NCBI GenBank assembly: GCA_050012475.1
Contig: JBEKHC010000014.1
Coordinates: 1 to 63,290, forward strand
DNA from: Candidatus Velthaea sp.
GTDB lineage: Bacteria; Vulcanimicrobiota; Vulcanimicrobiia; Vulcanimicrobiales; Vulcanimicrobiaceae
Direction: 5' to 3'
DNA: 63,290 nucleotides
The notes beneath the pieces are model-generated. The model saw only the letters and a program-made list of their open reading frames with translations, did not search any database and had not been told where the DNA came from. Made by a program: the position numbers and the translations under genes. The stretch's first letter is position 1; every line of letters starts with the position of its first letter. This document shows positions 26,281 to 61,004 of this stretch, in pieces.

Positions 26281-26345
26281 TTCACAATTCGCGTTACAAA
26301 GCTCCACGCAGGTTCACCAAACTTTCACAAACCTCGTGGTACGGT
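26281..26345 (+). promoter_or_regulatory. TTCAC-repeat promoter upstream of the hydrogenase operon
   Basis: TTCAC 26281, TCCAC 26303, TTCAC 26313, TTCAC 26324, then 11 nt to TACGGT (26340-26345). Confidence 0.55.
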
Positions 26346-26404
26346 GCAACAAATCTTTTGCGCCACCCATTTCGCGCTCCCAGCCTTTGAGAACGGTGAC
26401 CTTG

Positions 26405-27541
26405 ATGCGCCCGAACGTGGATCTCGATCCCTTAGCGACGCGGCACGCGCGGCCCGGCGGCCTTTCCCGCCGGGCCTTTGCGAAGTTCTGCGGCGCGATG
26501 GCCGCGACACTTGCGCTGCCGATGACGTATTCCACTGCAATCGCCTCGGCGTTGCAGTCCACCAAGAAGCCGGTGCTGGTGTGGCTCGAATTTCAGGACT
26601 GCACCGGCTGCTCCGAATCGTTTTTGCGCTCGGAAGATCCGGCTTTCGGGGAGATCGTGCTCGATCTGTTCACCCTGCGCTATCACGAGACGCTCATGGC
26701 TCCGGCCGGCGCGGCGGCGGAGCGTTCGTTGCGCGAAGTGGTCGACAATCTGAAGGGCAAATACATCGCGGTCGTCGAGGGATCGATCCCGACCGCCGAT
26801 TCGGGATACTGCACGATCGCCGGGCGCAGCGCGCTCGATATCGCCCGGGAAGTGTGCGGCAACGCCGCAGCCACGGTGACCGTCGGCGCCTGTGCCTTCT
26901 ACGGCGGCTGGCCGCGCGCGCATCCCAACCCGACCGGTGCCGTCGGTTTGGGGGAAGCCGTGCCGGGGCTCAAGATCGTCAATCTTCCCGGATGTCCGGT
27001 CAACGGTGCGAACGTCGCCGCGACGCTGGTCCACTATTTGACCTTCGGTGAACTCCCGGCGACCGATCAATTGGGGCGCCCGCTGTTCGCCTACGGACAG
27101 CTCATTCACGACAGCTGCGAGCGCCGCGCCCATTTCGATGCCGGCGAATACGTCGAGAAATGGGGCGATGACGCACACCGCACGGGCTGGTGCTTGTACA
27201 AAGTCGGCTGCAAGGGACCGACGACGCATCACAACTGCTCGATTGCGCGCTGGAACGGCGGAACGAGCTGGCCCATCGGCGCCGGGCACGGCTGCATCGG
27301 CTGCAGCGAACCCGAGTTTTGGGACGCGAACACGCCCTTCTACGATCGGCTGCCCAACGTTCCCGGCTTCGGCGTGCAAACGACGGCCGAACAAGTCGGG
27401 CTGGGGATCGTCGCCGCAACGGCGGTCGGCTTCGGATTGCACGGCGTGGCAGCCGTGGCGGCACATCACGTGAAGCCGCTGCGTGACGAAGACGGGCCGA
27501 TTCCGCCACCCTCCTCGGGCGAAGAAGGTGAAGAAAAGTGA
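26405..27541 (+). CDS. Group 1 [NiFe]-hydrogenase small subunit, Tat-exported, C-terminal anchor
   Basis: Twin-arginine SRRAFAK, CTGCSES, GCP, HDSC, CLYKVGCKGP, CIGC, hydrophobic tail with His. Confidence 0.93.
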   Translation: MRPNVDLDPLATRHARPGGLSRRAFAKFCGAMAATLALPMTYSTAIASALQSTKKPVLVWLEFQDCTGCSESFLRSEDPAFGEIVLDLFTLRYHETLMAPAGAAAERSLREVVDNLKGKYIAVVEGSIPTADSGYCTIAGRSALDIAREVCGNAAATVTVGACAFYGGWPRAHPNPTGAVGLGEAVPGLKIVNLPGCPVNGANVAATLVHYLTFGELPATDQLGRPLFAYGQLIHDSCERRAHFDAGEYVEKWGDDAHRTGWCLYKVGCKGPTTHHNCSIARWNGGTSWPIGAGHGCIGCSEPEFWDANTPFYDRLPNVPGFGVQTTAEQVGLGIVAATAVGFGLHGVAAVAAHHVKPLRDEDGPIPPPSSGEEGEEK

Positions 27542-29253
27542 CACGCATCGCGGTCGATCCGATTACCCGCATCGAGGGTCACTTGCGCATCGAAGCGCAG
27601 GTCGAACACGGCGTCGTCACCGATGCCTGGAGTTCGAGCACGATGTTCCGCGGCATGGAAATCGTGCTCAAAGGGCGTGACCCGCGCGATGCCTGGCTCT
27701 TTGCCCAGCGCATCTGCGGCGTTTGCACGACGGTTCATGCGCTCGCGTCCGTGCGCGCGGTCGAAGATGCGTTGGACATCGAGGTGCCGGCCAACGCGCA
27801 ATTGATCCGCAACATCATCGCCGGCACGCAGTGGGTGCAAGATCACGTCATCCACTTCTATCATCTGCACGCGCTGGATTGGGTCGACGTCGTCAGCGCA
27901 CTCAAAGCCGATCCGCGCGAAACCTCGCGGCTGGCCACGTCGATCTCGCCGTGGCCGAAATCGAGCACCGATTACTTCCGCGGAGTGCAGGGCAAATTGA
28001 GCAAGCTCGCTGAGTCGGGCGCCGATCTTGGCCTGTTCGCCAACGGCTATTGGGGGCATCCGGCATACAAGCTTCCGCCGGCGGTCAATCTGCTCGCGGT
28101 CGCGCATTATCTCGAAGCGCTCGAGTGGCAGCGCGAAGTGATCAAAGTCCAGGCGATCCTGGGTGCAAAGAATCCGCACCCCCAAACGTATCTCGTCGGC
28201 GGCATGGCGATTCCGGTCGATCCGACCAGCCAAGTCGCGATCAACGATCACCGCTTAGCCGAGCAATTGCGTTTGATCCGGCTGGCAAAAACGTTTGTCG
28301 AGCAAGTCTACATCCCCGATTTGCTCGCCATCGGGGCCGCGTACAAAGATTGGGCGAAGCACGGCGCGAGTGCCGGAAACTATCTGTGTTACGGCGACTT
28401 CCCGAGCGGAAACTCGCGCGATCCCAGTTCGTTCTGGATCCCGCGCGGCATCATCGTCAACGGCGACCTGTCGCACGTCGTTCCCTTCGATGAACGGCGC
28501 GTCGGTGAGGACGTCGCGCATGCCTGGTTCACCTACAGCGACTCGGACGCCGTCCCCAAGCACCCCTTAGACGGCCAGACCAACCCGAAATACACCGGGC
28601 CCAAGCCGCCGTATCAGACGCTGCCGACCGACGAAAAGTATTCGTGGGTCAAGGCGCCGCGGTACGACAAGATGCCGATGGAAGTCGGGCCGCTCGCGCG
28701 TTTGCTCGTCGGATACGCTTCGGGTCATAAGCAGATTCGCAGCGCCGTCGACACGACGTGTCACGCGCTGGGCGTCGGCATTCCCGCGCTCTCTTCCACC
28801 CTCGGACGGATCGTTGCGCGCGGCATCGAGACCCAACTGATGGTCGACAAAGTCTTGCAGTGGCACGACGACCTGGTGGCCAACGTCGGCAGCGGCGATT
28901 TGCGCGTGCACAATGGGACGCGCTGGGATCCGGCGACGTGGCCCGCGACCGCGGCCGGCTGGGGTGCCCACGAGGGTCCGCGCGGCTCGCTCGGCCATTG
29001 GATCCGCATCAAAGACCGCGCGATCGAGAACTACCAGTGCGTCGTTCCGACGACTTGGAACGCTTCGCCGCGGGATGCGGCGGGGATTCGCGGTCCCTAC
29101 GAAACCGCACTGCTCGGAACGCCGGTCGCCGACCCGCAGCGACCGTTGGAGATCTTGCGCACGATCCATTCGTTCGACCCGTGCATGGCCTGCGCGGTCC
29201 ACGTGACCGGGCCAGACGGCTCCGTCGCCGTGACCGTCGAGCGATCGGTGTAG
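27538..29253 (+). CDS. Group 1 [NiFe]-hydrogenase large subunit
   Basis: DPITRIEGH, L1 RICGVCTTVH, L2 SFDPCMACAVH plus cleavable tail; GTGA overlap with the small subunit. Confidence 0.96.
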   Translation: MTRIAVDPITRIEGHLRIEAQVEHGVVTDAWSSSTMFRGMEIVLKGRDPRDAWLFAQRICGVCTTVHALASVRAVEDALDIEVPANAQLIRNIIAGTQWVQDHVIHFYHLHALDWVDVVSALKADPRETSRLATSISPWPKSSTDYFRGVQGKLSKLAESGADLGLFANGYWGHPAYKLPPAVNLLAVAHYLEALEWQREVIKVQAILGAKNPHPQTYLVGGMAIPVDPTSQVAINDHRLAEQLRLIRLAKTFVEQVYIPDLLAIGAAYKDWAKHGASAGNYLCYGDFPSGNSRDPSSFWIPRGIIVNGDLSHVVPFDERRVGEDVAHAWFTYSDSDAVPKHPLDGQTNPKYTGPKPPYQTLPTDEKYSWVKAPRYDKMPMEVGPLARLLVGYASGHKQIRSAVDTTCHALGVGIPALSSTLGRIVARGIETQLMVDKVLQWHDDLVANVGSGDLRVHNGTRWDPATWPATAAGWGAHEGPRGSLGHWIRIKDRAIENYQCVVPTTWNASPRDAAGIRGPYETALLGTPVADPQRPLEILRTIHSFDPCMACAVHVTGPDGSVAVTVERSV

Positions 29254-29255
29254 CG

Positions 29256-29939
29256 ATGGATCAACCGCAACCGCAACCCGTCCTTCGGCGCGATGTCGTT
29301 TATGTGTGGCAGATTCCGGTACGTCTCACCCATTGGGTGAACGTGCTCGCGATTTTTGCCCTCAGCGCGACGGGGTTGTACATCGCCTGGCCCTTCTTTA
29401 CCGGCGGCGGCGGCTTCACGATGCGCTGGGCCTATGCTGCTCACATCGTGTTCGGCTGCATTTTCCTGTCCAGCGTCATGTTTCGCGTGTATTGGTCGTT
29501 GCGCGGGAATCGCTGGGCGTCGTACCGGGCGTTCTTTCCGGTCCTCACCAAGGACGGCCGGCGCGGTATGAGGCGCGCGCTGCTGTACTACGTGTTCCTC
29601 CGGCGCGTGCTGCCCGGCGGCGTCGGTCACAACGCGCTGGCGGCGACGACGTACACCTTGGTGTTCTTGCTCTTCATCGTCGAGATCGTCACCGGATTTG
29701 CGATGCTCACCTTCAACTGGGGCGGCGGCTGGCACACCGCGCTGGGTTGGGTTTTCGCGCTGGCGCCGCCTCAGCAGATCCATCTCGTGCATTACATCGT
29801 GATGTGGATGCTGCTCGGATTCGTCGTCCATCACATCTACAGCGCGACCCTGTTCGACATCGAAGGCCGCGAGGGCGAAATTTCGAGCATCATCAGCGGT
29901 TACAAGACCGTGCGCCGTCATGGCGGCAAAATGCAGTGA
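29256..29939 (+). CDS. Ni/Fe-hydrogenase b-type cytochrome subunit (HyaC/HupC-like)
   Basis: VYVWQIPVRLTHW, GHNALA, HYIVMW, HHIY, ISSIISGYK. Confidence 0.9.
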   Translation: MDQPQPQPVLRRDVVYVWQIPVRLTHWVNVLAIFALSATGLYIAWPFFTGGGGFTMRWAYAAHIVFGCIFLSSVMFRVYWSLRGNRWASYRAFFPVLTKDGRRGMRRALLYYVFLRRVLPGGVGHNALAATTYTLVFLLFIVEIVTGFAMLTFNWGGGWHTALGWVFALAPPQQIHLVHYIVMWMLLGFVVHHIYSATLFDIEGREGEISSIISGYKTVRRHGGKMQ

Positions 29940-30499
29940 GCGAGGTCTTGCTGCTGGGCATCGGCAACATTCTGCTCGCCGACGACGGACTGGGATCCTG
30001 GTTCGCGAGCGGCTTTCGCCGACGCTATCGAATCCCGCCGAACCTCGACGTCATCGAAGGCGGAACGCTCGGTCTCGAACTTCTCGATTGCATTGCGGGG
30101 CGACGCGCGCTCGTCGTCGTCGACGCGGTCGTCACGTCGCAGCCGAAGGCGGGCACCGTGGTGCGGCTGGAAGGGGCGATGGTCTCGGCCGCGCTCGGAC
30201 TCAAGATGTCGACGCACGACATCGCGCTGCGCGATCTGCTCGCAGGTGCGACGCTGTTGGGCTGCGTGCCGCCCAGCGTGGTCCTCTGCGGTATCGAACC
30301 GGCGGAAATCGCTCCTCAAATCGCGCTCTCCGCGCCGGTCCAGGCCGCGCTTCCCGCGCTGGAACGCCTGGTTCTCGAGGAGCTCGCGCGTTTGGGTTGC
30401 GTCTGCACGCCGGTCGCGCCGGAACCGGGCGCCGCAGGCGGCCTCTCGTGGGACCGGCTCGCGATCGAGCTGCCGGAAATGAACGCGCCGGCAATCTGA
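29936..30499 (+). CDS. Hydrogenase maturation protease (HyaD/HybD family)
   Basis: LLGIGNILLADDGLG, EGGTLG, VVDAV, STH, GIEP; GTGA overlap with the cytochrome b gene. Confidence 0.9.
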   Translation: MSEVLLLGIGNILLADDGLGSWFASGFRRRYRIPPNLDVIEGGTLGLELLDCIAGRRALVVVDAVVTSQPKAGTVVRLEGAMVSAALGLKMSTHDIALRDLLAGATLLGCVPPSVVLCGIEPAEIAPQIALSAPVQAALPALERLVLEELARLGCVCTPVAPEPGAAGGLSWDRLAIELPEMNAPAI

Positions 30500-32429: not shown

Positions 32430-32766
32430 GCCAACCCTTTTAAGCGTAGGAAACTTCTGCCTTATAAATTCGCCAGCAGTTCCCTTGGCGTGCCGCTGAT
32501 CGTCTACTTTGGCGGTCGCCTTGCGCCTGCTCCAAATGTGATCTCGATGCCTTCCGTTCCCGCCGATCCGCCTCCCAGCATCGGTGGTTAGCAGGCAAGC
32601 GAGCGAGAGCAGCCCGCCGTATGCTGAAAGATTTCTTCGCCCGCGCCATCGGTAGAATTCTTCAAGAGTTCGTCACAACGTTCTTGACTGGTTCGTCTCT
32701 CCTGCATCGTCAGGCCGTACGCTGGTCAACGACGAGCACAAACGACAAGCACATCTGGAGGCGACC

Positions 32767-32907
32767 ATGCAAGGATTTCTGGTCTTCAAGTCGTTGACCG
32801 AGGCGATTCGCGCCGGTTTCCACGTTTACGACCGCACGGCCGACGGTTATCTGGTGCGAACCCGCACATCGAGCGGCTGGGCGTTCGCGTTCGCCAAGAT
32901 GAGCTGA
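32767..32907 (+). CDS. 46-aa small hypothetical protein
   Basis: Not in the ORF track; GGAGG RBS 5 nt before ATG; MQGFLVFKSLTEAIRAGFHVYDRTADGYLVRTRTSSGWAFAFAKMS; genome-like codon use. Confidence 0.75.
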   Translation: MQGFLVFKSLTEAIRAGFHVYDRTADGYLVRTRTSSGWAFAFAKMS

Positions 32908-35538: not shown

Positions 35539-36906
35539 TTACGCGTCCTGGCGAACCTGCGACGACAAGGACACATGCATCCGTTCGGCGATCGCCAGGG
35601 CGTCGCGCACGTTATCGCCCACGCCCAGGCCGCGATACGCGTTGCCGGCAAGCGCGAACCCGGGGTGCGTTGCTTCGCGTTGCTCGATCGCGCGCACGAT
35701 GGAGCGATGCCGCAGCGTATATTGCGGGATCGCTTTGGGCCAGAGAATCTCGTGGTGCGCGACCGGCGGCGCGGTGATGCCCAATACCCGGCGCAGGTCG
35801 GCCAAAACGATCCACTTCACGGTTTCGGCGTCAAGGGCGGCGATTGCGGGGTCGGCGGCACCGCCTAAAAAGATCCGCAGATAGGTCGTCTCCGGCGGGG
35901 CGTGTTCGGGGACGATCGACGAGGTGTAGAACGCGCCCAAGCTGCGGATGCCCTCGTTGCGCGCGGCCAAGAACCCGAAACCGTCCAGCGGCGCCGGCAC
36001 GTCGGCGGTGCGAAACGCAACGCCGACCGCGCGCATCGGCGCGTACGGAATCTCGCTCAAGTGCGCAGCCAGCTCGGCATCGAAGCCCTCGACCAACCCG
36101 GCGGCGACGTCGGCCGGCGTCGCGACGACGACGCCGTCGACTACCGCTTCGCCGTCATCGTGCACGATGCGCCAACCGTCGTCGCCGCGTTCGATGCGCT
36201 GCACGCCGACGCCGGTGCGCAAGCGATCTCCCAGCCGTTCGGCCAACCGGTTCGTGAGCGTCTGCATGCCGCCGTTGGCGAAGCTATACATGCCGGCACG
36301 GTCGCGCGGACCTTTTTTGCGCGGTGCTTGGAACATCGCCCGAATCACGGAGCCGTGCTTGGCCTCCATGTCGCGCAAACGGGGAAAAATCGCCGCCAAG
36401 CTCGTTGCCGCGGCGTCGCCGCCGCTGATGCCCAGCAGCGCCGGGGAAACGAGCCGCTCGGCCACTTCGCGTCCGAACCGCCGCTCCATGAACGTGTAGA
36501 CGCTCTCGTCGTCGGCACCGGCGCCCTTGCGCACGAACAGCTCGCCCAACGCGCGCGCTTTGCCGCGCGTCGACAGGATCGTCATCTTGAAGGCATCGGA
36601 CGGTTTGGCCGGCAGTTGGTGCAGCACGCCGTCCCAATAGATGAAGCGTTTCTTCGCCGCCGGACGCGCCGGCGTGAGCGCGTCGCCCAAGCCGATCTCG
36701 CCGATGAGCGCCTTGAGTTCGCCGGCGCTCGCGAGAAAGGCGCTCGGGCCCCACTCGAAGAGAAAACCGCCCTCGATCGGTTGCGAGCGGATCTTGCCGC
36801 CGGCGGACGCCTCGCGCTCGAAGAGAACGACGTCGTGGTGCGCGCCCAGGCGATCGGCGGCGGTGAGTCCGGCGATGCCGCCGCCGATCACGGCGACCGT
36901 GCTCAC
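35539..36906 (-). CDS. hemY: FAD-dependent protoporphyrinogen oxidase
   Basis: VAVIGGGIAGL, GGKIRS, EWGP, GFGFL, AIPQY, AGNAYRGLGV; GTG overlaps the hemH stop. Confidence 0.92.
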   Translation of the reverse strand: MSTVAVIGGGIAGLTAADRLGAHHDVVLFEREASAGGKIRSQPIEGGFLFEWGPSAFLASAGELKALIGEIGLGDALTPARPAAKKRFIYWDGVLHQLPAKPSDAFKMTILSTRGKARALGELFVRKGAGADDESVYTFMERRFGREVAERLVSPALLGISGGDAAATSLAAIFPRLRDMEAKHGSVIRAMFQAPRKKGPRDRAGMYSFANGGMQTLTNRLAERLGDRLRTGVGVQRIERGDDGWRIVHDDGEAVVDGVVVATPADVAAGLVEGFDAELAAHLSEIPYAPMRAVGVAFRTADVPAPLDGFGFLAARNEGIRSLGAFYTSSIVPEHAPPETTYLRIFLGGAADPAIAALDAETVKWIVLADLRRVLGITAPPVAHHEILWPKAIPQYTLRHRSIVRAIEQREATHPGFALAGNAYRGLGVGDNVRDALAIAERMHVSLSSQVRQDA

Positions 36907-40033: not shown

Positions 40034-40076
40034 TTCACAAATATTTCACTGCCCCTTCACGGGCCGCCCCTAGCGT
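40034..40076 (+). promoter_or_regulatory. TTCAC-repeat promoter of the radical SAM gene
   Basis: TTCAC at 40034, 40045 and 40056 (exact 11-bp period), then 10 nt, then TAGCGT. Confidence 0.7.
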
Positions 40077-40114
40077 CGGCAGAGATGGCCAGTCCATCCG
40101 CTCAGGAGTTCCGC

Positions 40115-41203
40115 ATGCCTCTCGAAATGGCGCCTGACTACAGCGCCGCGCCGCGATACGTCTACTGGGAGATGACCCAGGTCTGCGGCCTCGCCTGCCG
40201 TCACTGCCGCGCCACCTCCAAGCGGGTGCAGCATCCCGACGAACTGACGACAAACGAAGGCAAGGCGCTGGTTCGCGAAGTCGCGCTCTTCGGCGGCCGG
40301 CCGCCCACGCTGATCTTCTCGGGCGGCGACCCGCTCGAGCGCGAGGATCTGTGGGAACTGCTCGATTACGCTCACGGCCTGGGCATTCCGACGGCGGTCA
40401 CCCCGAGCGCCACGCCGACCCTGAGCCGCGACCATTTCGTCAAGCTCAAGGCCCACCACGTCAGCGCGGTGAGCATGAGCCTCGACGGCTCGAATGCCAA
40501 GCGCCACGACGGCATCCGTAACGTCGGCGGCTGCTTCGACTACACCATGCAGGCCTGGGACTGGACCGCCGAACTCGAGATTCCCTTGCTGGTGAACTCG
40601 GTGGTCTCCGAAGCCAGCTATGACGACATCCCCGCGATCTATGCGCTGCTGCGCACCAAGAAGCTCATCCGCTGGAGTTTGTTCTTCCTGATCGCCGTCG
40701 GCCGCGGACGCTATCTGGTGCCGGTTACGAGCGAACGCGCCGAAGAACTCATGCGCTCGATGTACGAGTGGTCGCTCGACGCGCCGTTCGTGATCGGTTC
40801 AACCGAAGCACCCTCGTACCGCCGGATCGCGCTCGAAGCGATGCGCGCCAGCGGCTGGACCGAAGCGCAAATCGCCGCGACGCCGCTCTCCGCCGGCTTT
40901 GGGATTCGCGACGGCAACGGCGTGGTTTTCGTGTCGAAGATCGGCGATGTCTATCCGACGGGTTTCTTGCCGCTCTCCGGCGGCAACGTCCGCCAGCGCG
41001 GACTGGTCGACATCTACCGCAACAGTCCGCTGTTCACGAACATTCGCGACCTCAAACGATTCAAGGGAACGTGCGGCGTCTGCGGCTATCGCGCGATCTG
41101 CGGCGGTTCACGCGCCCGGGCGTATGCCCAAACGACCGATGCCCTCGAAAGCGATTCACTCTGCAGCTATAAGCCCGCGCCGGCTGCCGCCGCAGCGATG
41201 TAA
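40115..41203 (+). CDS. Radical SAM/SPASM protein, TIGR04053 / AhbD-NirJ-like
   Basis: WEMTQVCGLACRHC, SGGDPL, SLDG, CGVCGYRAICGGSRARAY...C; AGGAG RBS. Confidence 0.88.
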   Translation: MPLEMAPDYSAAPRYVYWEMTQVCGLACRHCRATSKRVQHPDELTTNEGKALVREVALFGGRPPTLIFSGGDPLEREDLWELLDYAHGLGIPTAVTPSATPTLSRDHFVKLKAHHVSAVSMSLDGSNAKRHDGIRNVGGCFDYTMQAWDWTAELEIPLLVNSVVSEASYDDIPAIYALLRTKKLIRWSLFFLIAVGRGRYLVPVTSERAEELMRSMYEWSLDAPFVIGSTEAPSYRRIALEAMRASGWTEAQIAATPLSAGFGIRDGNGVVFVSKIGDVYPTGFLPLSGGNVRQRGLVDIYRNSPLFTNIRDLKRFKGTCGVCGYRAICGGSRARAYAQTTDALESDSLCSYKPAPAAAAAM

Positions 41204-45891: not shown

Positions 45892-45894
45892 GCG

Positions 45895-50007: not shown

Positions 50008-50050
50008 TTCATCCGCTCTTCACCCCGCCTTCGCCGCGGGCGCCTACGCT
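50008..50050 (+). promoter_or_regulatory. TTCAC-repeat promoter of the small membrane protein gene
   Basis: TTCAT 50008, TTCAC 50019, TTCGC 50030, then 10 nt, then TACGCT 50045-50050. Confidence 0.65.
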
Positions 50051-50094: not shown

Positions 50095-50301
50095 ATGAGG
50101 CCGGCGAATGTCGATCCGGTCGAGTGTGCCCGCCTCATCGTCTATGCCCATTTGTCGGCAACACGCGAAACGCCCGACGATGCGCGCTCGGCGATCATCG
50201 ACGCCGCCGGACAGCCGGATTTCCCGCCGAGCATTGCGCTCACGCTCGTGTGCGTCGTTTCCTCGATCGCGATCGTGGCTTGGTCGATCGCGACGCAATG
50301 A
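50095..50301 (+). CDS. 68-aa small protein with C-terminal TM helix
   Basis: GGAGG RBS; ends in IALTLVCVVSSIAIVAWSIATQ; has its own candidate promoter. Confidence 0.65.
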   Translation: MRPANVDPVECARLIVYAHLSATRETPDDARSAIIDAAGQPDFPPSIALTLVCVVSSIAIVAWSIATQ

Positions 50302-50317: not shown

Positions 50318-50950
50318 CTAGGCGAAACCGAAGCGCGGCGAGCGCCGGTAGGTCACACCGGCGCGGGGCATCTCGAGTTTGGCATCGATGACGGCGTACG
50401 AATCGCGGTGCAAGCGCACCGGATCGAGCGTTAAACGCGCGCTCGCGGTGTTGACGAAAATCGCGCAAACCCGCACCATGACCAGCGCGAGCGCACGCAG
50501 CGCGGCGGGCTCCAAGGCCACCTGGGCTTTGTCGAAAACATTGGCCAGCACGGCCTGCGCCTGATGCAGATCGACCGGCGCGGCGCCGACGACGCGATGC
50601 GCGCCGCTTCTCACTTCGACGATCCGCCCCAGCGCCGCGTCGGCCCGGCATCGGATCCCGATATCGGTCCCGCACTCGACCATGCGTTGGGCGAGAATCT
50701 GGCCGCCGGCAAGCTTTTGGGCTTGCGCTGCAATACGTTCGTAAGCGCGCCGCACCATCTGCGCGCTCGTCAGATCGGTGAGCGCGAGCGATACGTCGGC
50801 ACCGTACGCCGGCGGGACGAGCCGCAGCGCGATCGGCCCGCGCGCCGCAAACGCCACCGCCTGCTTCGCACTCGTAACGTACCGCGAGCGCGCGACGCGA
50901 ATTCCGCGTTCGCGCAACAGGTCCAGAACCGTCAGCGTGTCGACGATCAT
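50318..50950 (-). CDS. Stand-alone degenerate ATP-grasp domain (acetate-CoA ligase beta-like)
   Basis: LLRERGIRVARSRYVTSAKQAV, VRRAYERI, ILAQRMV, LTLDPV...VIDAK parallel the ATP-grasp region of the Pat protein at 6976-9696. Confidence 0.7.
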   Translation of the reverse strand: MIVDTLTVLDLLRERGIRVARSRYVTSAKQAVAFAARGPIALRLVPPAYGADVSLALTDLTSAQMVRRAYERIAAQAQKLAGGQILAQRMVECGTDIGIRCRADAALGRIVEVRSGAHRVVGAAPVDLHQAQAVLANVFDKAQVALEPAALRALALVMVRVCAIFVNTASARLTLDPVRLHRDSYAVIDAKLEMPRAGVTYRRSPRFGFA

Positions 50951-51149
50951 CGGCTTGCCGAATCTTGCTCGAACATGCACCGAACTTGGCGTTGGACGAC
51001 GAAAGTACCGTGAAAGGGGGACCGTTTACGGGGCGAGAGTGATCGCCGTCAATCATCGCTCGCCGCTGTCGCTCTGGGCAGCCGGCTCCAGATCCGGCAT
51101 GATATCGGACACGGTGTGAAGACGCAGCGGGAAGGCCGGGCATGGTTCC

Positions 51150-51170
51150 TTCACGCTCGATCGGTACCGT
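51150..51170 (+). promoter_or_regulatory. TTCAC-N10-TACCGT promoter, probably leaderless
   Basis: TTCAC 51150, TACCGT 51165-51170, ATG 7 nt later at 51178 with no RBS. Confidence 0.55.
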
Positions 51171-51177: not shown

Positions 51178-52137
51178 ATGAGCGGCGTTTTCACCCGCAT
51201 TCTCGCGGCAATCGACGGATCGGAACCATCGAACGTTGCCGTGACAGTCGCCGCACGTTTGGCCAGCGAGCACGGTGCGCAGCTCGTGCTCTGCCACTGC
51301 GCGAATTGGGAGCCGCTCATCGTGCAGTTACAATCGATCGGCGCGATCGTCGATCCGACGCCGACGATCGGCGCGGTGAAAGAACGCGGCACCCGCGTGC
51401 TGGCCGAGGCCGCCGGACGGGCGCACGAATTCGGCGTCGAGGTGCGATCCGTCGTGCTCCAAGGGGATCCGCCGACGGGCATCAGCGCTTTGGCCCGCGA
51501 GACGCAGAGCGGGCTGATCGTGATGGGAACTCACGATGGGGCCGGCATGCAGCGGCTGCTCGTCGGCAGCACCACGAGCGCCGTGTTGCAGCGAAGCACG
51601 CTTCCAGTTCTCACCGTCCGCCCGGGCATTCGCGTCGCGCCGCCGGTACGGCGCTGTTTCGAGCGCATCCTCGTCGCCACCGACGACTCCGCGCTGTCGG
51701 CCGTGGCCATCGAGACGGCGTTGGCGTTCCCGGCCGAAGACCGCCGCGAGCTGCTGTTCTGCAGCGTCGCGGACGTCGATCGCGTCAGCGCCGAAAGCGA
51801 TCGTGAAGATCCGCTGGCCGGAAGCCGGCTGGCGGCGCAAGCGCAGACGGCCGTCGAGCGAGCGTTGGAGCGGGCACGCGCCCGCGGCATCGCCGCCCAG
51901 GGCCGCGTCCTCGAAGGCAACCCCGGCGCGGAGCTGGTCGCCGCCGCCGAACGCGAGCGCGTCGACCTCATCGTGCTGGGGACGCACGGCCGGCACGGCG
52001 GCGAACGCATCGCCCTGGGCAGCGTCGCGGAGCGGATCATTCGCACCGCGCCGCTTCCGGTCATGATCGTGGGCAGCGGCGTGCGCAGCCGCGACGATGC
52101 GGCCGCGAGCGCGAACCATCAGGCGTCACTGGTCTGA
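51178..52137 (+). CDS. Tandem universal stress protein (2x USP)
   Basis: RILAAIDGS...LIVMGTH...GSTT; second domain RILVATDDS...DLIVLGTHG...LGSVAE. Confidence 0.92.
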   Translation: MSGVFTRILAAIDGSEPSNVAVTVAARLASEHGAQLVLCHCANWEPLIVQLQSIGAIVDPTPTIGAVKERGTRVLAEAAGRAHEFGVEVRSVVLQGDPPTGISALARETQSGLIVMGTHDGAGMQRLLVGSTTSAVLQRSTLPVLTVRPGIRVAPPVRRCFERILVATDDSALSAVAIETALAFPAEDRRELLFCSVADVDRVSAESDREDPLAGSRLAAQAQTAVERALERARARGIAAQGRVLEGNPGAELVAAAERERVDLIVLGTHGRHGGERIALGSVAERIIRTAPLPVMIVGSGVRSRDDAAASANHQASLV

Positions 52138-54765: not shown

Positions 54766-54866
54766 GGATGTTCTGATTTCGCCCTGGCGAGGAGCAATGC
54801 GGCGAAGTTTGCTTCAGCAAATGAACCGCGCAGCACGACGTCCGGGGCTAAATCAGAGTATCCTCA
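54763..54866. mobile_element. ~105-bp palindromic MITE-like element (inverted copy)
   Basis: TAAGGATGTTCTGATTT...AAATCAGAGTATCCTCA; internal GGCGAAGTTTGCTTCAGCAAATGA is shared with 25760-25864. Confidence 0.8.
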
Positions 54867-55343
54867 AAGACGCGTTATTTCCAGCGCCGGCGCACCTTCG
54901 ATGGCTTCGACGATATCGGTCAGCAGCGCATCCGCGGTCGATTCCGCGATGCTCTTGCCGATCGCGGCGTCGAAGAAGGCGCCGACGGGACCGAACGGCG
55001 CGGTGTAGGTTCCCTCGAGTTCGAGGACGGAGGTCGAGTCGTCCGCGCCGCGATGGAGAAACAGCCAGCCCGTAAAGCGCGGATAGGGGCCGCCGCCGGC
55101 AACTTCCCACTGGATGTGAAAGCCCGTCGCCGGATTCTCGTCGGCGCGAAGCCGCACGAACGTCGCGCGCACTTCGCGTTCGAGCGACAGGTGCGAAGGC
55201 AGCCCGATGTCGGCCAGCCGGACGCGCAACGGCAGCGTGCGCTCGCGCCCGTCATCAGCAAGCCTCGCGTAAAAGGCTTCGACGTAGTGGTTGGAACCGG
55301 GCCAAGCACAGTGCAGAATTCGTTGCGCAGAGATCGCTCGCAT
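54864..55343 (-). CDS. Hypothetical protein, SRPBCC/START-like
   Basis: IQWEVAGGGPYPRFTGWL...LELEGTYTAPFGPVGAFFDAAIGKSIAESTADALL resembles a helix-grip C-terminus. Confidence 0.7.
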   Translation of the reverse strand: MRAISAQRILHCAWPGSNHYVEAFYARLADDGRERTLPLRVRLADIGLPSHLSLEREVRATFVRLRADENPATGFHIQWEVAGGGPYPRFTGWLFLHRGADDSTSVLELEGTYTAPFGPVGAFFDAAIGKSIAESTADALLTDIVEAIEGAPALEITRL

Positions 55344-55350: not shown

Positions 55351-55393
55351 ATGATAGGAGCTTCCTGTGAAGGTCTCACGAAATCGCTGAGAA
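55351..55393 (-). promoter_or_regulatory. TTCAC-repeat promoter, leaderless
   Basis: Minus strand: TTCTC-N6-TTCGT-N6-TTCAC-N10-TATCAT-N7-ATG (55343). Confidence 0.7.
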
Positions 55394-57358: not shown

Positions 57359-57390
57359 TTCACGCCGCCTTCACGTGAGCCGCCTAGCCT
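57359..57390 (+). promoter_or_regulatory. TTCAC-repeat promoter
   Basis: TTCAC 57359, TTCAC 57370, then 10 nt, then TAGCCT 57385-57390. Confidence 0.65.
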
Positions 57391-57399
57391 GCTCCCTTC

Positions 57400-57666: not shown

Positions 57667-57696
57667 GCCGAGAGCGGCCTCGGATGGGCGCCCTCG

Positions 57697-57765
57697 GCTC
57701 CGCTCGGTGCTCCCTGTCCGCTCCGCTCGGTGCGCCCCGCCCGCTTCGCTCGGCACGCCCCGCCC
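57697..57765. repeat. 23-bp tandem repeat x3
   Basis: GCTCCGCTCGGTGCTCCCTGTCC / GCTCCGCTCGGTGCGCCCCGCCC / GCTTCGCTCGGCACGCCCCGCCC. Confidence 0.75.
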
Positions 57766-57942
57766 GCGTCGGCCGGTACGCCACGCGCGAACACTGCAGA
57801 TTCGTCGAGCGAATCCCAGACGAATCCATCAAGGCTTTCGGACCTTGCCGCCGCTGGGGCGCGAGTGGGATGATCGGCTCCGGGGCAGGAACGCCGCTCC
57901 GGCCGCGTGATTGAATCTTTCGTGAACGGTGTTGCGCGCATG

Positions 57943-57974
57943 GTCACGCTGCCTTCACAAGCGCGGTTTAGCTT
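57943..57974 (+). promoter_or_regulatory. TTCAC-repeat promoter of the second USP gene
   Basis: GTCAC 57943, TTCAC 57954, then 10 nt, then TAGCTT 57969-57974. Confidence 0.65.
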
Positions 57975-58049
57975 TAAAGACCACATCCACCGCAGTGATC
58001 GGTCCCCTAACGCGTGCCCGTTTCGGACACGAGAATCGGCAGGCCAAGT

Positions 58050-59012
58050 GTGAGCAGCCTTTTCGGACGTATTCTCGTCGCGATCGACGATTCGGAGCCC
58101 GCGAAAACAGCGCTCGCGCTCGGCGCGCGCCTCGCTCGGGAACACGACGGCGAACTCGTCCTGTGCCACGCGCTCAACTGGCTCCCGATCATCGCCGAGA
58201 TCGAGTCTACGGGTGTCATCTTCGACCCGCAGCCGACGATCGAAGGGCTCACGCGGAACGCCCAAGCGATGCTGGACGGGGCGAGCCAGGACGCTTTGCG
58301 CTTCGGCGTCGCCGCAAAACACCACCTCATCGAAGGCGAGCCCGCGAAAGCCATCCTCGCACTGGCGAACAAGCTGCGCTGCGGCACCATCGTGATGGGG
58401 ACGCACGCGCGCGGCGGTTTGGGACGGCTGTTCATCGGCAGCACGACCGAGGCGGTGCTCCGCGGCAGTTCGATCCCGGTGCTGACCGTTCGGCCCGGGA
58501 CGGTCTTGGCGCTCGAGCCGCGCAAGTGCTTCGAGCGGATCGTCGTCGGGGCCGACGAGTCCGAACCGGCGCGCGCGGCGATCGACACGGTCGTCGGACA
58601 CGCGGCGGCCGACGATTGTCACGTGCTCTTCTGCAGCGTCGTCGACTTCGACGCCGTCGTCGGTTCGCACGGCTACTATGACACGTCGCTCCAAGCCTCG
58701 CTCTACGACGATGCGCAGCGCGTGGTCGACCGCGCGGTGACCGAAGCCCGGGCCAACGACGTGGCGGCCGAAGGGCGCATCGCCGAAGGCAACGCCAGCC
58801 GCGCGCTCATCGCGGTCGCCAAGCGCGAAAATGCCGATCTCATCGTCACCGGCAGCCACGGCCGCAACGGCGTCCGCCGGGTGTTCCTGGGCAGTGTCGC
58901 CGAGACCATCGTGCGGATGTCGCCCGTTCCGGTGCTCGTCGTTCGCTGCCCGGCGCGTGTTCCTGCGACGGCCGGGGCAAGAGCAAAACGGCAGACGTCG
59001 GCGGTCCGCTAA
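58050..59012 (+). CDS. Tandem universal stress protein (2x USP), paralogue of 51178-52137
   Basis: RILVAIDDS, IVMGTHARGG...GSTTE, CFERIVV, DLIVTGSHG...LGSVAE. Confidence 0.92.
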   Translation: MSSLFGRILVAIDDSEPAKTALALGARLAREHDGELVLCHALNWLPIIAEIESTGVIFDPQPTIEGLTRNAQAMLDGASQDALRFGVAAKHHLIEGEPAKAILALANKLRCGTIVMGTHARGGLGRLFIGSTTEAVLRGSSIPVLTVRPGTVLALEPRKCFERIVVGADESEPARAAIDTVVGHAAADDCHVLFCSVVDFDAVVGSHGYYDTSLQASLYDDAQRVVDRAVTEARANDVAAEGRIAEGNASRALIAVAKRENADLIVTGSHGRNGVRRVFLGSVAETIVRMSPVPVLVVRCPARVPATAGARAKRQTSAVR

Positions 59013-59091
59013 CTCCCTGCTCGACGCCGGGACGCGCCCGATCGGGGCGGTTTCGCTGGGATCGAACCCCTTGACCGGTCCTTCACAAACC

Positions 59092-60339
59092 GTGCCGATC
59101 ACCGCCCAGGACTTCGTCGTGCTCCTGAGCATGGCGCTGTTTTTTGGTCTGGCGTTCGAGAAGTTCTTCGCCCCCGAAATCCCGCAGCGGCCGGGCGGTA
59201 TCCGCACCTTTCCGATGCTGGCCTTGGCCGGTGCCGGCTGTTACGCCCTCGCCCCGCAGAGCGGAGTCATCTTTGCCGCCGGGTTGGCGATCTTGGGGCT
59301 CTGGCTTTATGCCTACTACCGGGTCAGCGCCGCCGCTGAGCAACGCGACTTCGTCGTCCCCGTCTGCAATCTGTTGGCCTACCTGCTCGGTGCGCTCGCC
59401 GTGACCCAAGCTCCGTGGCTGGTCATCGCGGTGACGGTCGCCGCGACGATGCTGCTGGCGGGCCGCCGGCGCCTGCACGAGATCGCGCAAACGGTGCCGC
59501 TCGAAGAAATCTTCACGGCGGGGCAGTTCCTGCTGCTCGTGGGCGTCGCGCTGCCGCTGTTTCCCGACGTTCCCTTCGCCGGATTGCGCGAACTGTCGCC
59601 GCACCGCGTGTTGCTGGCCGTCATCGCCGTCTCGACCCTCTCGTACGCCAGTTATCTCCTGACCCGATACGTCCGGCCCAAGGGCGCGACCCTGCTGGCC
59701 GCTGTTCTGGGCGGCTTGTATTCCTCGACCGCGACGACGGTCGTGCTCGCCCGGCGCAGCCGCGACGGTCAGGCGCCGGCCGACGTTGCGGCGGGCATCG
59801 TGCTGGCCACCGCCTTCATGTACATCCGGCTGCTCGTCATCATCGTGATTTTCGATGCGGCGCTGGGCCGCGTGCTGCTGGTGCCGCTGCTGAGCTTCTT
59901 CGCCGCCGGCTGCGCGGCGGCGTGGATCGTTTACCGCGCCGCAAGCGAACGGCGAACCGCGGATATTCCAGCCGAGGAGAAAGCACCGACGAACCCGCTG
60001 CAGGTCGGCGCGGCCGTCCTGTTCGCCGTTTTGTTCATCGCGGTCACGTTTGCGACGCACGCGGCCCAAGGCCGGTTCGGACGCTCGGGCCTCGACGCCC
60101 TGGCCGCGCTCGTCGGCTTCACCGACATCGACCCATTCGTGCTGAGCATTGCTCAGGGCAACGCTGGTCCGCTGCCCGCGGTCGCCCAGGCCATCCTCAT
60201 CGCGGTTTCTTCGAACAACTTGCTCAAAGCCGCGTACGCGTTCATCTTCGGCGCCGGCCGCGGAATGCGGCGCCCGATGCTCGCGCTCATCGCGTTAGCC
60301 GCCGCCGGCCTCGCCGCGGCCGTCATCGTCGGGCGTTAG
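59092..60339 (+). CDS. MgtC/SapB + DUF4010 polytopic membrane protein
   Basis: GGIRTFPML, GGLYSSTATT, VGFTDIDPF, SNNLLK. Confidence 0.88.
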   Translation: MPITAQDFVVLLSMALFFGLAFEKFFAPEIPQRPGGIRTFPMLALAGAGCYALAPQSGVIFAAGLAILGLWLYAYYRVSAAAEQRDFVVPVCNLLAYLLGALAVTQAPWLVIAVTVAATMLLAGRRRLHEIAQTVPLEEIFTAGQFLLLVGVALPLFPDVPFAGLRELSPHRVLLAVIAVSTLSYASYLLTRYVRPKGATLLAAVLGGLYSSTATTVVLARRSRDGQAPADVAAGIVLATAFMYIRLLVIIVIFDAALGRVLLVPLLSFFAAGCAAAWIVYRAASERRTADIPAEEKAPTNPLQVGAAVLFAVLFIAVTFATHAAQGRFGRSGLDALAALVGFTDIDPFVLSIAQGNAGPLPAVAQAILIAVSSNNLLKAAYAFIFGAGRGMRRPMLALIALAAAGLAAAVIVGR

Positions 60340-60341
60340 CG

Positions 60342-60926
60342 CTAACTGCAGACCGGCCGGCCCGGCAGGTGCAGGCAATATTCCCCGGGCTTGGCGCCCA
60401 AGTGGACGCGGCCCCCGCGGCTCTCGAGCGCCGGCGCCATCGCATCGAGGTGCGCGGCTGCCAGCTGCCAGTCGCCCAAGGCGGTCGCGGTCAAACGGAC
60501 CACCGCGCCGGAGCCGGCCGCGATGCGAATCGACGACCGGGGCGGCAACGCCGAGAGCAACGCGTGCAGGGCTTCTTCGACCGCTTCGTGCATCGCGAGC
60601 GCGTGGCCGCGTAAAATTCCGCACGGACTCATTCGCCGGTCGGATCCCGTCACGAGCAGCCGAACGTCACCAGCGGACGAGGCCACCTCCAGCTCATCGG
60701 CAACCGAACGGACCAAGTCTTCGATATCGACGACTTGGTCGTCGGCCGGAGTCTGATCCCAATCGTACTTGGAAACGGTCGCAACGATGCTCTTCACGTC
60801 CTCGAGGGCGCGCACGAGGCCTTGTAAATTGCTCTTGTCAGTCGGCAGTTTTCCATCGAGCATCGCGGTCGCGGTGAGCACAGCCGTCGTCAAGCGATTG
60901 CGCAATTCGTGGATTTGGGTCGTCAC
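60342..60926 (-). CDS. Histidine-kinase-like protein with DHp domain and degenerate ATPase domain
   Basis: IHELRNRL H-box; C-terminal part keeps HATPase-like spacing but lacks the N and G boxes; start uncertain (60926-61016). Confidence 0.7.
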   Translation of the reverse strand: MTTQIHELRNRLTTAVLTATAMLDGKLPTDKSNLQGLVRALEDVKSIVATVSKYDWDQTPADDQVVDIEDLVRSVADELEVASSAGDVRLLVTGSDRRMSPCGILRGHALAMHEAVEEALHALLSALPPRSSIRIAAGSGAVVRLTATALGDWQLAAAHLDAMAPALESRGGRVHLGAKPGEYCLHLPGRPVCS

Positions 60927-60961
60927 GGCGGCCAACCATCGATCCGGTTTGTCACCGGCTA

Positions 60962-61004
60962 ACCCTACCCGGGACCTTTGACGAACGCATGAACGTTCGG
61001 CGAA
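60962..61004 (-). promoter_or_regulatory. TTCAC-like repeat promoter of the pseudo-kinase gene
   Basis: Minus strand: TTCGC-N6-TTCAT-N6-GTCAA-N10-TAGGGT. Confidence 0.5.

What the first reader, a model, noticed from the sequence alone, without database searches (positions are those of the whole stretch)
26281..61004. Hidden regulon: 11-bp-period TTCAC direct repeats ending 10 bp before a -10 box at about ten promoters
Seen in sequence: the architecture (TTCAC-N6)n-N10-TAnnnT occurs at 40034-40076 (radical SAM; three perfect TTCAC), 50008-50050, 55351-55393 (-), 57359-57390, 57943-57974 (USP) and 60962-61004 (-). There is a single-repeat version at 51150-51170 (USP). N11 variants occur at 26313-26345 (hydrogenase) and 51099-51120 (-), and weaker matches at 32692-32723 and 3408-3439. 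Established: OmpR/PhoB-family activators bind head-to-tail repeats with an 11-bp period placed about 10 bp upstream of the -10 box, replacing the -35. Inference: one activator, plausibly the regulator at 61021-61725, co-induces USPs, hydrogenase, the heme-related radical SAM enzyme and several unknown small proteins. That would be a DosR/ResD-like low-oxygen regulon I do not recognise as described. A phosphate (PhoP/PhoB) regulon is the main alternative, because Streptomyces PHO boxes use a similar GTTCAC repeat.
Basis: partly seen in the sequence, partly recalled or inferred. Interest (0 to 1): 0.85.

Follow-up and report, generated by a model that had tools for sequence, protein, structure and literature searches.

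The report
Low-oxygen regulon with swappable sensor kinases
About ten promoters in this piece of a soil bacterium's genome share a repeated DNA box that relatives also keep, and it likely lets one family of regulators switch on low-oxygen survival genes, with the signal predicted to come either from a heme-type oxygen sensor encoded next door or from a cysteine-bearing kinase that has no sensor domain.

Summary
The motif is real. A model trained outside the window recovers nine window sites (shuffles: 0.07). Period 11 and spacer 10 are sharply preferred. In relatives an ATG follows the -10 box at exactly +7 in 15 of 37 sites. The genome is Eremiobacterota. The repeat itself is the known CreB/BlrA tag, but the regulator is not CreB, and pst promoters carry a different box, so the phosphate reading fails. 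Targets here and in relatives include USPs, ba3 oxidase, a heme-synthase-like radical SAM enzyme, hydrogenase, pyruvate:ferredoxin oxidoreductase, 4-hydroxybutyryl-CoA dehydratase and SRPBCC-like proteins: a DosR/lxa-like low-oxygen set. The likely binder is a class-wide OmpR clade with two copies in this genome. One copy pairs with a sensor-less four-cysteine kinase in the ba3 operon. The window's copy pairs with a hybrid kinase that has a FixL-like heme-PAS domain and a grafted His-bearing hairpin predicted to dock on the regulator; four relatives have only this kinase. Binding, start sites and the signal are untested. The scan noted the regulon and cysteine kinase before on another genome (unreviewed note); the heme-PAS branch was not in the lines shown.

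The parts
40034..40076 (+). Triple TTCAC repeat + N10 + TAGCGT; promoter of the radical SAM gene
   Evidence: (23.3 bits held out); footprint kept in 16 of 26 homologous genes at the same register
50008..50050 (+). Triple repeat + N10 + TACGCT; before a 68-aa ORF
   Evidence: 20.6 bits; the paralogue on C51 has a matching site with its ATG at the same +45
55351..55393 (-). Triple repeat + N10 + TATCAT; ATG at +8 (likely leaderless SRPBCC-like gene)
   Evidence: (20.1 bits)
57359..57390 (+). Double TTCAC + N10 + TAGCCT; before small ORF 57400/57463-57666
   Evidence: 22.4 bits
57943..57974 (+). GTCAC/TTCAC + N10 + TAGCTT; promoter of the USP and DUF4010 genes
   Evidence: 21.7 bits
60962..61004 (-). 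Triple repeat + N10 + TAGGGT; separate promoter for the pseudo-kinase, downstream of the regulator
   Evidence: 20.3 bits; a like site lies right after the regulator in G178
26313..26345 (+). Double TTCAC + N11 + TACGGT; hydrogenase promoter
   Evidence: TTCAC-N6-TTCGC-N11-TAnnnT kept in 2 of 9 homologous operons
32681..32723 (+). Degenerate triple repeat + N10 + TACGCT; before a 46-aa ORF
   Evidence: (15.7 bits)
3408..3439 (+). Weaker double repeat + N10 + TATGAT; before a 142-aa unknown ORF
   Evidence: (15.0 bits)
51150..51170 (+). Single TTCAC + N10 + TACCGT; ATG at +8 (likely leaderless USP); not significant alone
51099..51120 (-). Single TTCAC + N11 + TATCAT; divergent, before the ATP-grasp-like gene; weakest site
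   Evidence: 9.7 bits; homologous genes carry strong sites in G013, G065 and G017
61021..61725 (-). OmpR-family response regulator of an Eremiobacterota clade; phospho-acceptor residues intact; no repeat in its own promoter
61927..63290 (+). Hybrid histidine kinase, cut by the contig end: His-bearing DHp-like hairpin, FixL-like PAS (proximal His and distal Arg positions kept), HisKA, HATPase; full-length relatives end in a receiver domain
60342..60935 (-). Pseudo-kinase: DHp His kept, ATP-binding N and G boxes lost; homologue of the four-cysteine kinase; start codon uncertain
40115..41203 (+). TIGR04053 radical SAM/SPASM protein (next-best model: heme b synthase AhbD, below cut-off); alternative ATG at 40085
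26396..30499 (+). [NiFe] hydrogenase operon: small and large subunits, cytochrome b, maturation protease
51178..52137 (+). Universal stress protein, two domains; followed by phosphoketolase 52330-54765, which has no site of its own
58050..59012 (+). Universal stress protein, two domains; followed by DUF4010/MgtC-like membrane protein 59092-60339
54864..55343 (-). SRPBCC/START-like protein of a family that recurs beside the regulator across the class
   Evidence: (lead only)
50318..50950 (-). Stand-alone ATP-grasp_5-like protein
50095..50301 (+). 68-aa unknown protein with paralogues on C51 and C61, both with sites
32767..32907 (+). 46-aa unknown protein, multi-copy in the genome

Best explanation
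The TTCAC repeats sit at a fixed distance before a -10 box and are likely the binding sites of an Eremiobacterota OmpR-clade activator that would switch on a low-oxygen survival regulon when phosphorylated. Shown: the sites, their geometry, their conservation, the gene set, and the conserved regulator-kinase neighbourhoods. Inferred step 1: head-to-tail regulator dimers bind two or three repeats over the -35 region and recruit RNA polymerase, often to leaderless transcripts that start at the ATG 7 nt after the -10 box. Inferred step 2: in this window the divergent hybrid kinase senses O2 through a FixL-like heme-PAS domain, and phosphate passes from its kinase His to its receiver Asp, then to the grafted N-terminal His, then to the 61021-61725 regulator. 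Inferred step 3: the class-wide paralogue (C65) is fed by a sensor-less kinase whose four catalytic-domain cysteines form a redox- or O2-sensitive disulfide or metal site. Both regulators likely read the same boxes. The induced pseudo-kinase likely acts as a feedback relay or phosphate sink.
For: Geometry and non-randomness. In 986 kb of relatives' DNA scored with a model from this genome only, 41 sites reach >=18 bits at spacer 10 against 3-13 at other spacers; ATG falls at +7 in 15 of 37 sites, and at +6..+9 in 18 against 1.4 expected. Targets: 6 of 8 USP genes score >=12 bits against 40 of 4101 genes (partly circular, as 3 were seeds and a fourth entered on iteration). PFOR, desaturase, PHA synthase/MaoC-Pta and 4-hydroxybutyryl-CoA dehydratase (1U8V, E 6e-228) carry sites. 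TTCAY is exact at the second-repeat register in 4 of 4 leaderless ba3-oxidase promoters (ba3 identity). Radical SAM footprint: 16 of 26 at N21 and 4 at N22. The regulator clade lies among ba3, USP, xfp, ackA and SRPBCC genes across three families. Genomes with a triple-repeat match: 51 of 119 with the clade against 15 of 74 without; outside the class, 5 of 5 genomes with a near relative have >=5 matches against 2 of 52. PAS: top solved-structure matches are FixL, EcDOS and heme-binding FG214, with His122 and Arg142 invariant in 17 of 17. The hybrid kinase lies beside the window-type regulator in G178, G221, G195 and G271, and 4 of 5 hybrid-bearing genomes tested show no cysteine kinase. Seven more genomes have a His-bearing PAS kinase of this type within about 6 kb of the regulator. 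The N-terminal His is kept in 17 of 17 kinase fusions and lost in 2 of 2 phosphatase fusions. Predicted hairpin-receiver complex: score 0.75, best control 0.01; the mark was reached by 116 of 157 solved and 2 of 215 mismatched pairs; runs agree in >=92% of contacts; partner pLDDT >=80. This is a textbook kinase-regulator pair, so the pass may reflect likeness to solved complexes. Cysteines 70, 96, 103 and 138 are kept in 117-118 of 120 homologues; C96 and C138 align with two cysteines of the SrrB catalytic domain. Literature parallels: lxa gene content (PMC3721108, passages); ba3 rises as O2 falls (PMC11551716, passages); SrrB redox cysteines (PMC8534201 and PMC8774646, passages).
Against: No binding, start-site, heme or expression data exist. 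Two paralogues could bind, and neither is shown to. 15 of 74 class genomes without a detected regulator still have a triple match (only 11 candidates were scored per genome), and G015 (96% complete) has a 26-bit site but no clade member found. 68 of 119 regulator-positive genomes have no match to the strict triple pattern. The best USP locus per relative scores >=12 bits in only 6 of 29, against 12 of 116 at wrong spacers; ba3 loci score so in only 3 of 17. Of 16 ba3 loci, 8 gave no small ORF and 4 no nearby -10 box. Hydrogenase sites are kept in only 2 of 9. In other classes and phyla, TTCAC repeats precede Nif11-like/radical SAM genes, a metal-binding-domain gene or the regulator itself (names read from sequence), beside membrane-type kinases without the cysteines. 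Pho boxes score up to 20 bits with the same model. About a third of the 28 best sites in this genome precede unknown or uncalled genes. The hybrid kinase is cut by the contig end here. The tree is a quick one without bootstrap.
Confidence: 0.7

Rival explanations
1. The boxes are real sites of this regulator clade, but the signal is general redox, energy or stationary-phase stress (or NO/CO), not O2 as such; the regulon would be a growth-arrest set in the manner of CreBC or SrrAB.
For: USPs, Hsp20 and PHA genes are general stress genes. CreBC, which uses the same tag, responds to fermentative or metabolic cues (PMC4689548, passages). SrrB responds to the quinone pool and NO. Heme-PAS FG214 is described as redox-regulated (PMC13060918, abstract and one section). 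The class-wide kinase has cysteines, not heme.
Against: A FixL-type PAS kinase replaces the cysteine kinase in several genomes. ba3 oxidase and enzymes known to be O2-labile (PFOR, 4-hydroxybutyryl-CoA dehydratase; own knowledge) are among the targets.
Confidence: 0.17
2. The site list is a mixture: several OmpR regulators share the geometry, and the window sites are read mainly by the C65 paralogue or by another envelope- or metal-stress regulator, while the window's regulator has a separate role.
For: 12 full-length OmpR regulators in the genome. A copper-type TTCAG class and the Pho box share the geometry. The window regulator has no site in its own promoter. Sister-clade regulators outside the phylum have TTCAC sites before other kinds of genes.
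Against: The two paralogues have nearly identical recognition helices. In genomes where only the window-type pair was found, the surrounding islands carry strong sites before ba3, USP, xfp and SRPBCC genes. The copper-type sites drop below 15 bits in the refined model.
Confidence: 0.09
3. A phosphate-starvation (PhoB/PhoP) regulon.
For: Same 11-bp geometry. 5 of 27 pstS-like promoters of relatives reach >=15 bits with the TTCAC model.
Against: pstS promoters carry TTAAN/TTGAN repeats in the same geometry (9 of 27 loci by pattern). pstS and phoU of this genome score <=4 bits (the C75 pstS promoter is cut off by a contig end). No pst or pho gene is among the 28 best sites. A different regulator lies about 3 kb from pstS in several relatives (coordinates).
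Confidence: 0.02
4. A Rex or Crp/Fnr regulon whose palindromic half-site (TTCAC/TCAC) was misread as a direct repeat.
For: The Rex box TTGTGAA-W4-TTCACAA contains TTCAC (PMC2883068, abstract in the search listing). The lxa locus uses TGA-N6-TCA. The genome has 18 matches to the Crp-type HTH family.
Against: No rex gene was found (genome 94% complete). No inverted spacing is enriched, and there are 0 GTGA-N6-TCAC and 0 GTGAA-N4-TTCAC sites in window non-coding DNA. Period 11 is sharply preferred.
Confidence: 0.02

Closest known systems
CreBC / BlrAB (E. coli, Aeromonas, Pseudomonas) and the cre/blr tag
   Same: Identical core TTCAC-N6-TTCAC read by an OmpR-family activator (PMC4689548, passages). 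In E. coli creD the tag ends 22 nt before a TAGTCT hexamer, the register of the N11 variants (start site not checked). CreB is the top NCBIfam hit of the window regulator.
   Different: The hit is below the cut-off (212.7 against 273), identity is 38%, the recognition helix differs, and CreB falls outside the clade. No CreC-type membrane sensor or creD lies beside it. The targets differ.
SrrAB (S. aureus) / ResDE (B. subtilis)
   Same: OmpR-family low-O2/NO system controlling oxidases and anaerobic metabolism (passages). Two cysteines of the partner kinase align with two cysteines of the SrrB catalytic domain.
   Different: SrrB has Cache, membrane, HAMP and PAS input. The partner kinase here is only DHp-CA, with two more invariant cysteines and often a terminal CxxC. 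Orthology was not tested.
FixL-FixJ(-FixK) of rhizobia; EcDOS
   Same: Heme-PAS fold with the proximal His and distal Arg positions kept, fused to a histidine kinase.
   Different: A hybrid kinase with a receiver domain and an extra N-terminal His hairpin; the partner is an OmpR regulator acting directly on many promoters. FixJ being LuxR-type and acting through FixK is own knowledge.
DosRST regulon (mycobacteria) and the lxa locus (Burkholderia cenocepacia)
   Same: USP-rich, low-oxygen persistence gene set with Hsp20, acetate kinase, phosphate acetyltransferase and PHA genes (PMC3721108, passages; PMC2914252, abstract in the search listing).
   Different: lxa uses an Anr/Fnr-like palindrome. 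DosT senses through GAF-heme, and DosR is NarL-type (own knowledge). Here a direct repeat is read by an OmpR protein.
CckA-ChpT-CtrA phosphorelay (Caulobacter; recalled, from no call)
   Same: Hybrid PAS kinase, a pseudo-kinase with His but no ATP boxes, and an OmpR regulator.
   Different: The relay His also sits at the kinase's own N-terminus. The pseudo-kinase is rare (2 of 151 genomes with a clear match) and has no solved-structure match.

Membership tests
CreBC/BlrAB | TTCAC-N6-TTCAC tag in target promoters | tested here: met
CreBC/BlrAB | Regulator orthologous to CreB | tested here: not met
   below cut-off, 38% identity, outside the clade in a quick tree where CreB is a long branch
CreBC/BlrAB | Adjacent CreC membrane sensor and creD | tested here: not met
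   neighbours are a pseudo-kinase and a cytoplasmic PAS hybrid; creD was not searched genome-wide
PhoB/PhoP regulon | Box present at pstS/phoU promoters | tested here: not met
   pstS promoters carry TTAAN/TTGAN repeats
PhoB/PhoP regulon | Induction by phosphate limitation | not testable with these tools
   needs expression data
SrrAB/ResDE | OmpR-family regulator with respiratory/fermentative targets | tested here: met
   (targets predicted from sites)
SrrAB/ResDE | Cysteine pair in the catalytic domain of the kinase | tested here: met
   C96/C138 of the C65 kinase align with two SrrB cysteines 37 residues apart; that these two form the reported disulfide is recalled, as the primary paper is not held
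SrrAB/ResDE | Membrane-bound Cache-HAMP-PAS sensor | tested here: not met
   fewer than 30 residues precede the His in 120 of 120 homologues of 133-424 aa; longer forms were not searched
SrrAB/ResDE | Orthology to SrrA/ResD | not tested
   neither sequence was in the tree
FixLJ | Heme-PAS with proximal His and distal Arg | tested here: met
   sequence and fold only
FixLJ | Heme and O2 binding that regulates the kinase | not testable with these tools
   needs spectroscopy and kinase assays
FixLJ | Simple kinase paired with a LuxR-type FixJ | tested here: not met
   hybrid kinase paired with an OmpR regulator
DosRST | NarL-type regulator, palindromic box, GAF-heme sensors | tested here: not met
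   OmpR, direct repeat, PAS
DosRST / lxa | USP-rich target set | tested here: met
   6 of 8 USP genes in this genome; weak in relatives' best USP loci (6 of 29)
Rex | rex gene and inverted TTGTGAA-W4-TTCACAA box | tested here: not met
Fnr/Anr/FixK | TGA-N6-TCA-type palindrome at the promoters | tested here: not met
   0 GTGA-N6-TCAC in window non-coding DNA; the exact Fnr consensus was not scanned
ChpT-like phosphotransferase (60342-60935) | DHp His kept, ATP-binding boxes lost | tested here: met
ChpT-like phosphotransferase (60342-60935) | Relays phosphate between receiver domains | not testable with these tools
   needs phosphotransfer assays

The most novel reading that the evidence does not exclude
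Eremiobacterota run a class-wide hypoxia regulon through one OmpR clade with interchangeable oxygen inputs. One input is a minimal kinase that senses through a four-cysteine metal or disulfide site inside its catalytic domain, with no sensor domain at all. The other is a heme-PAS hybrid kinase that plugged into the pathway by grafting the minimal kinase's His-bearing hairpin onto its N-terminus as a built-in phosphotransferase: a DHp used as an HPt, which would show how a new sensor is wired into an existing regulon.
Probability: 0.4. Interest if true: 0.8.

Novelty: new variant of a known kind. Interest (0 to 1): 0.62.

Why it matters
It predicts how an abundant, barely cultured soil and peat phylum copes with low oxygen, and it gives candidate roles to several unknown small proteins, an SRPBCC-like family and the TIGR04053 radical SAM enzyme. 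For signalling specialists it offers two testable oddities: a sensor-less kinase with four invariant catalytic-domain cysteines, and a heme-PAS hybrid kinase carrying a grafted copy of that kinase's His hairpin. It also shows the cre tag reused by a non-CreB regulator, and that OmpR boxes of the same geometry must be told apart by two or three bases.

Tried and rejected
RNA data: five metatranscriptome runs from two studies hold part of the region, as contigs only. In four runs of one study, contigs stop at 51186 (4 of 4) and at 57990-57996 (4 of 4), 8-15 nt inside the predicted starts, and one stops at 32743. Contigs cannot show starts and the second study gave no cover, so this is not counted as evidence. 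One contig (X4, 26165-26375) runs across the predicted hydrogenase start, and contigs of the SRPBCC-like gene stop at 55256, 88 nt short of its predicted start. Single-repeat and exact-pair counts were not enriched. Scoring the best USP locus per relative was not discriminating. The careful tree did not finish, so a quick tree was used. The model of the cysteine kinase (mean pLDDT 87) gave only ordinary kinase matches, and its coordinates could not be inspected, so clustering of the cysteines is untested. The pseudo-kinase has no solved-structure match. Two papers were not held. Paper searches for a sensor-less four-cysteine kinase and for TTCAC repeats with OmpR, hypoxia and USPs returned nothing. 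The first 20 of 804 listed papers for Eremiobacterota two-component/USP terms had no mention of the phylum, and the listing showed no regulon study; the library lacks most subscription journals. No supplements were read. Rejected: Pho, Rex, Crp/Fnr and CreB membership (see rivals and membership test).

Full report
Setting. The window is contig C14 of a 5.36-Mb, 64% GC genome. The best hit of the regulator among named records is an Eremiobacteraeota genome, which falls in the same family. Named homologues of the partner kinase are Eremiobacteraeota/Baltobacteraceae proteins. Genes were called with my own script and annotated with NCBIfam and Pfam.

Observation. All 11 strings are present. A relaxed two-repeat pattern plus TAnnnT occurs in upstream regions 8+6 times (sense+antisense) at spacer 10 and 7+5 times at spacer 21, against 0-3 at other spacers and at most 1 in 3.7 Mb of coding DNA at spacer 10. 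A matrix trained on 11 non-window sites finds 9 window sites at >=15 bits and 6 at >=20 bits in 11.5 kb of non-coding DNA; 500 shuffles give 0.07 and 0.004. Period 11 and spacer 10 are sharp optima. A refined model, seeded by hand with 17 sites of the TTCAC class, gives 28 non-coding and 2 coding sites at >=18 bits genome-wide, 8 of them in this window. Single TTCAC sites are not enriched, so 51150 and 51099 rest on context only.

The hexamer is likely a real -10 box. In relatives' loci, ATG follows it at exactly +7 in 15 of 37 sites, and at +6..+9 in 18 against 1.4 expected per four positions. This is the pattern expected of leaderless mRNAs. In the window, ATG lies at +8 for the USP at 51178 and the SRPBCC-like gene at 55343.

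Targets. In the window: a TIGR04053 radical SAM enzyme, a membrane [NiFe] hydrogenase, two USPs, an SRPBCC-like protein, an ATP-grasp-like protein, small unknown ORFs and a pseudo-kinase. Elsewhere in the genome: four more USPs, PFOR, 4-hydroxybutyryl-CoA dehydratase, a desaturase, PHA synthase with MaoC-Pta, and a LuxR-type gene before acetoacetyl-CoA reductase. About a third of the best sites precede unknown or uncalled genes. With a model from this genome only, relatives show sites before USPs, ba3 oxidase, SRPBCC-like, Hsp20, radical SAM, phosphoketolase and alcohol dehydrogenase homologues: 41 sites at spacer 10 against 3-13 at other spacers in 986 kb. The radical SAM footprint is TTC-N-N plus 21 nt plus TAnnnT in 16 of 26 homologues, 22 nt in 4 and 32 nt in 9; other distances give 0-3, except 8 at 24 and 4 at 33. 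TTCAY is exact in 4 of 4 leaderless ba3 promoters, out of 16 loci examined. Results against: best USP loci 6 of 29 and ba3 loci 3 of 17 by score; hydrogenase 2 of 9. The set resembles the low-oxygen lxa locus (PMC3721108, passages), and ba3 oxidase rises as O2 falls in Caldalkalibacillus (PMC11551716, passages). The one cultured member of the phylum is a strict aerobe growing at 1-20% O2 (PMC9758169, passages), so survival rather than anaerobic growth is the likely role (inference).

Not phosphate, Rex or Crp. pstS promoters of relatives carry TTAAN/TTGAN repeats in the same geometry (9 of 27 loci by pattern), although 5 reach >=15 bits with the TTCAC model. pstS and phoU of this genome score <=4 bits. 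No rex gene and no palindrome enrichment were found.

Which regulator. The repeat equals the cre/blr tag (PMC4689548, passages), but the regulator is below the CreB cut-off, 38% identical, and outside CreB's place in a quick tree. It belongs to an Eremiobacterota clade (SH-aLRT 96; 35 rows including duplicates) found in 119 of 193 class genomes. The clade sits among ba3, USP, xfp, ackA and SRPBCC genes. Triple-repeat matches occur in 51 of 119 genomes with the clade and 15 of 74 without. Outside the class, 5 of 5 genomes with a near relative have >=5 matches against 2 of 52 (kin are not independent; tallies include unpublished G030 and G205). Among 79 loci from other phyla, strong sites fall in 4 of 11 sister-clade loci and 2 of 68 others. 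So the clade likely reads TTCAC, but outside the class the repeats precede other genes, and function must come from the targets and sensors. This genome has two clade members, 59% identical, with recognition helices that differ at two positions.

Input one. The C65 copy lies in an operon with ba3 oxidase, SCO, a 242-aa kinase, an SRPBCC-like gene and acetate kinase. The kinase has intact His, N and G boxes but fewer than 30 residues before the His in 120 of 120 homologues. Cysteines 70, 96, 103 and 138 are kept in 117-118 of 120, and a terminal CxxC in 71; no kinase outside the family in my control set shows all four. C96 and C138 align with two SrrB cysteines. Reviews report a redox-sensitive disulfide in the SrrB catalytic domain (PMC8534201, PMC8774646, passages); that it is this pair is recalled. 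The family was found in 20 of 121 phylum genomes, all within the class (23 candidates scored per genome). Redox or O2 sensing by these cysteines is inference.

Input two, in this window. Divergent from the regulator is a kinase cut by the contig end; relatives are about 710-aa hybrids ending in a receiver domain. Its PAS domain matches FixL, EcDOS and heme-binding FG214 best, by sequence and by fold, with the His and Arg positions invariant in 17 of 17. Its first 60 residues are homologous to the DHp of the cysteine kinase (E 3e-10) and are modelled as a helical hairpin. The His is kept in 17 of 17 kinase fusions and lost in both phosphatase fusions on C65. The hybrid occurs in 13 of 201 family genomes. 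It lies next to a regulator 71-83% identical to the window's in G178, G221, G195 and G271, and next to other clade members in G237 and G260. Four of five such genomes tested gave no cysteine-kinase match (one is 79% complete), yet their islands carry sites before ba3, USP, xfp or SRPBCC genes. Seven further genomes have a PAS kinase with the same His within about 6 kb of the regulator. A predicted complex of the hairpin dimer with the regulator's receiver scores 0.75 against 0.01 for the best control (mark reached by 116 of 157 solved and 2 of 215 mismatched pairs; runs agree in >=92% of contacts; partner pLDDT >=80). It resembles solved kinase-regulator pairs, so it may show likeness only. 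The pseudo-kinase 60342-60935 keeps the His, lacks the ATP boxes, has its own TTCAC promoter, and has one clear homologue in 150 family genomes, in the same context.

Mechanism. Shown: sites, geometry, conservation, neighbourhoods and residues. Inferred: low O2 activates the heme-PAS hybrid (relay kinase His, receiver Asp, N-terminal His, regulator) and/or the cysteine kinase; the phosphorylated regulators bind the repeats over the -35 region and activate largely leaderless transcripts for high-affinity respiration, O2-independent cofactor synthesis, substrate-level ATP formation and stress protection. Confidence 0.7.

Novelty. The box and the kind of regulon are known; the wiring is not in the papers I could search (most subscription journals are missing). 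An unreviewed note of this scan, seen only after I had reached this reading, reports the same regulon and cysteine kinase in another genome; it is not independent support. Verdict: real, a new variant of a known kind, interest 0.62.

Noticed in passing
window 974-32369: PHA island: two class-II-like PHA synthases, depolymerases, phasin, BktB, acetoacetyl-CoA reductase, alcohol dehydrogenase and an acetate-CoA ligase/GNAT fusion. The nine genes scored have no TTCAC site of 10 bits or more.
   Followed up: partly
window 35539-39888 (-): hemE-hemF-hemH-hemY operon (O2-dependent steps) divergent from the radical SAM gene; the TTCAC array lies between them and might switch between two heme routes. 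Untested.
   Followed up: no
window 43615-48120 (+): Bacteriophytochrome kinase followed by a receiver-GAF-PP2C protein.
   Followed up: no
window 32767-32907 (+): 46-aa protein with at least six close paralogues in the genome and no Pfam match.
   Followed up: partly
L165:91-3717 (G000 C65:5391-9017): Two SpoIIE-type phosphatase proteins carry the same DHp-like hairpin plus FixL-like PAS but have lost the His; they may dock on the same pathway without relaying phosphate.
   Followed up: partly
L174 (G000 C1:103001-111000): A separate TTCAG-N6-TTCA(T/C/G)-N10-TAnnnT promoter class before cupredoxin, SCO and lipoprotein genes, beside its own OmpR pair; likely a copper regulon; similar sites in several relatives.
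   Followed up: partly
L176-L193 (pstS promoters of relatives): Candidate Pho box of the class: TTAAN-N6-TTAAC/TTGAN-N10-TAnnnT (one locus is from unpublished G030).
   Followed up: partly
L296, L301-L304 (G063, G059, G055, G050, G045): Genomes of other classes carry 14-29 near-perfect triple TTCAC promoters with TATAAT; two of the loci examined lead into genes that look like Nif11-type peptides and a radical SAM protein (read from sequence only): a possible large peptide-biosynthesis regulon.
   Followed up: partly
L165:18904-18946 (+) (G000 C65:24204-24246): A strong site pointing away from the ba3 operon with no ORF called behind it; G003 has a like site. Possibly a small RNA or antisense transcript.
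   Followed up: no
G000 C66:19035 (+) and C59:11764 (-): Two related high-scoring repeat arrays with a poor -10 box, each followed by a 40-codon and a 30-codon ORF, the latter Cys-rich.
   Followed up: no
window 57690-57780: Short imperfect repeats (CCGCTCGGTGC-like) between the small ORF and the USP promoter.
   Followed up: no
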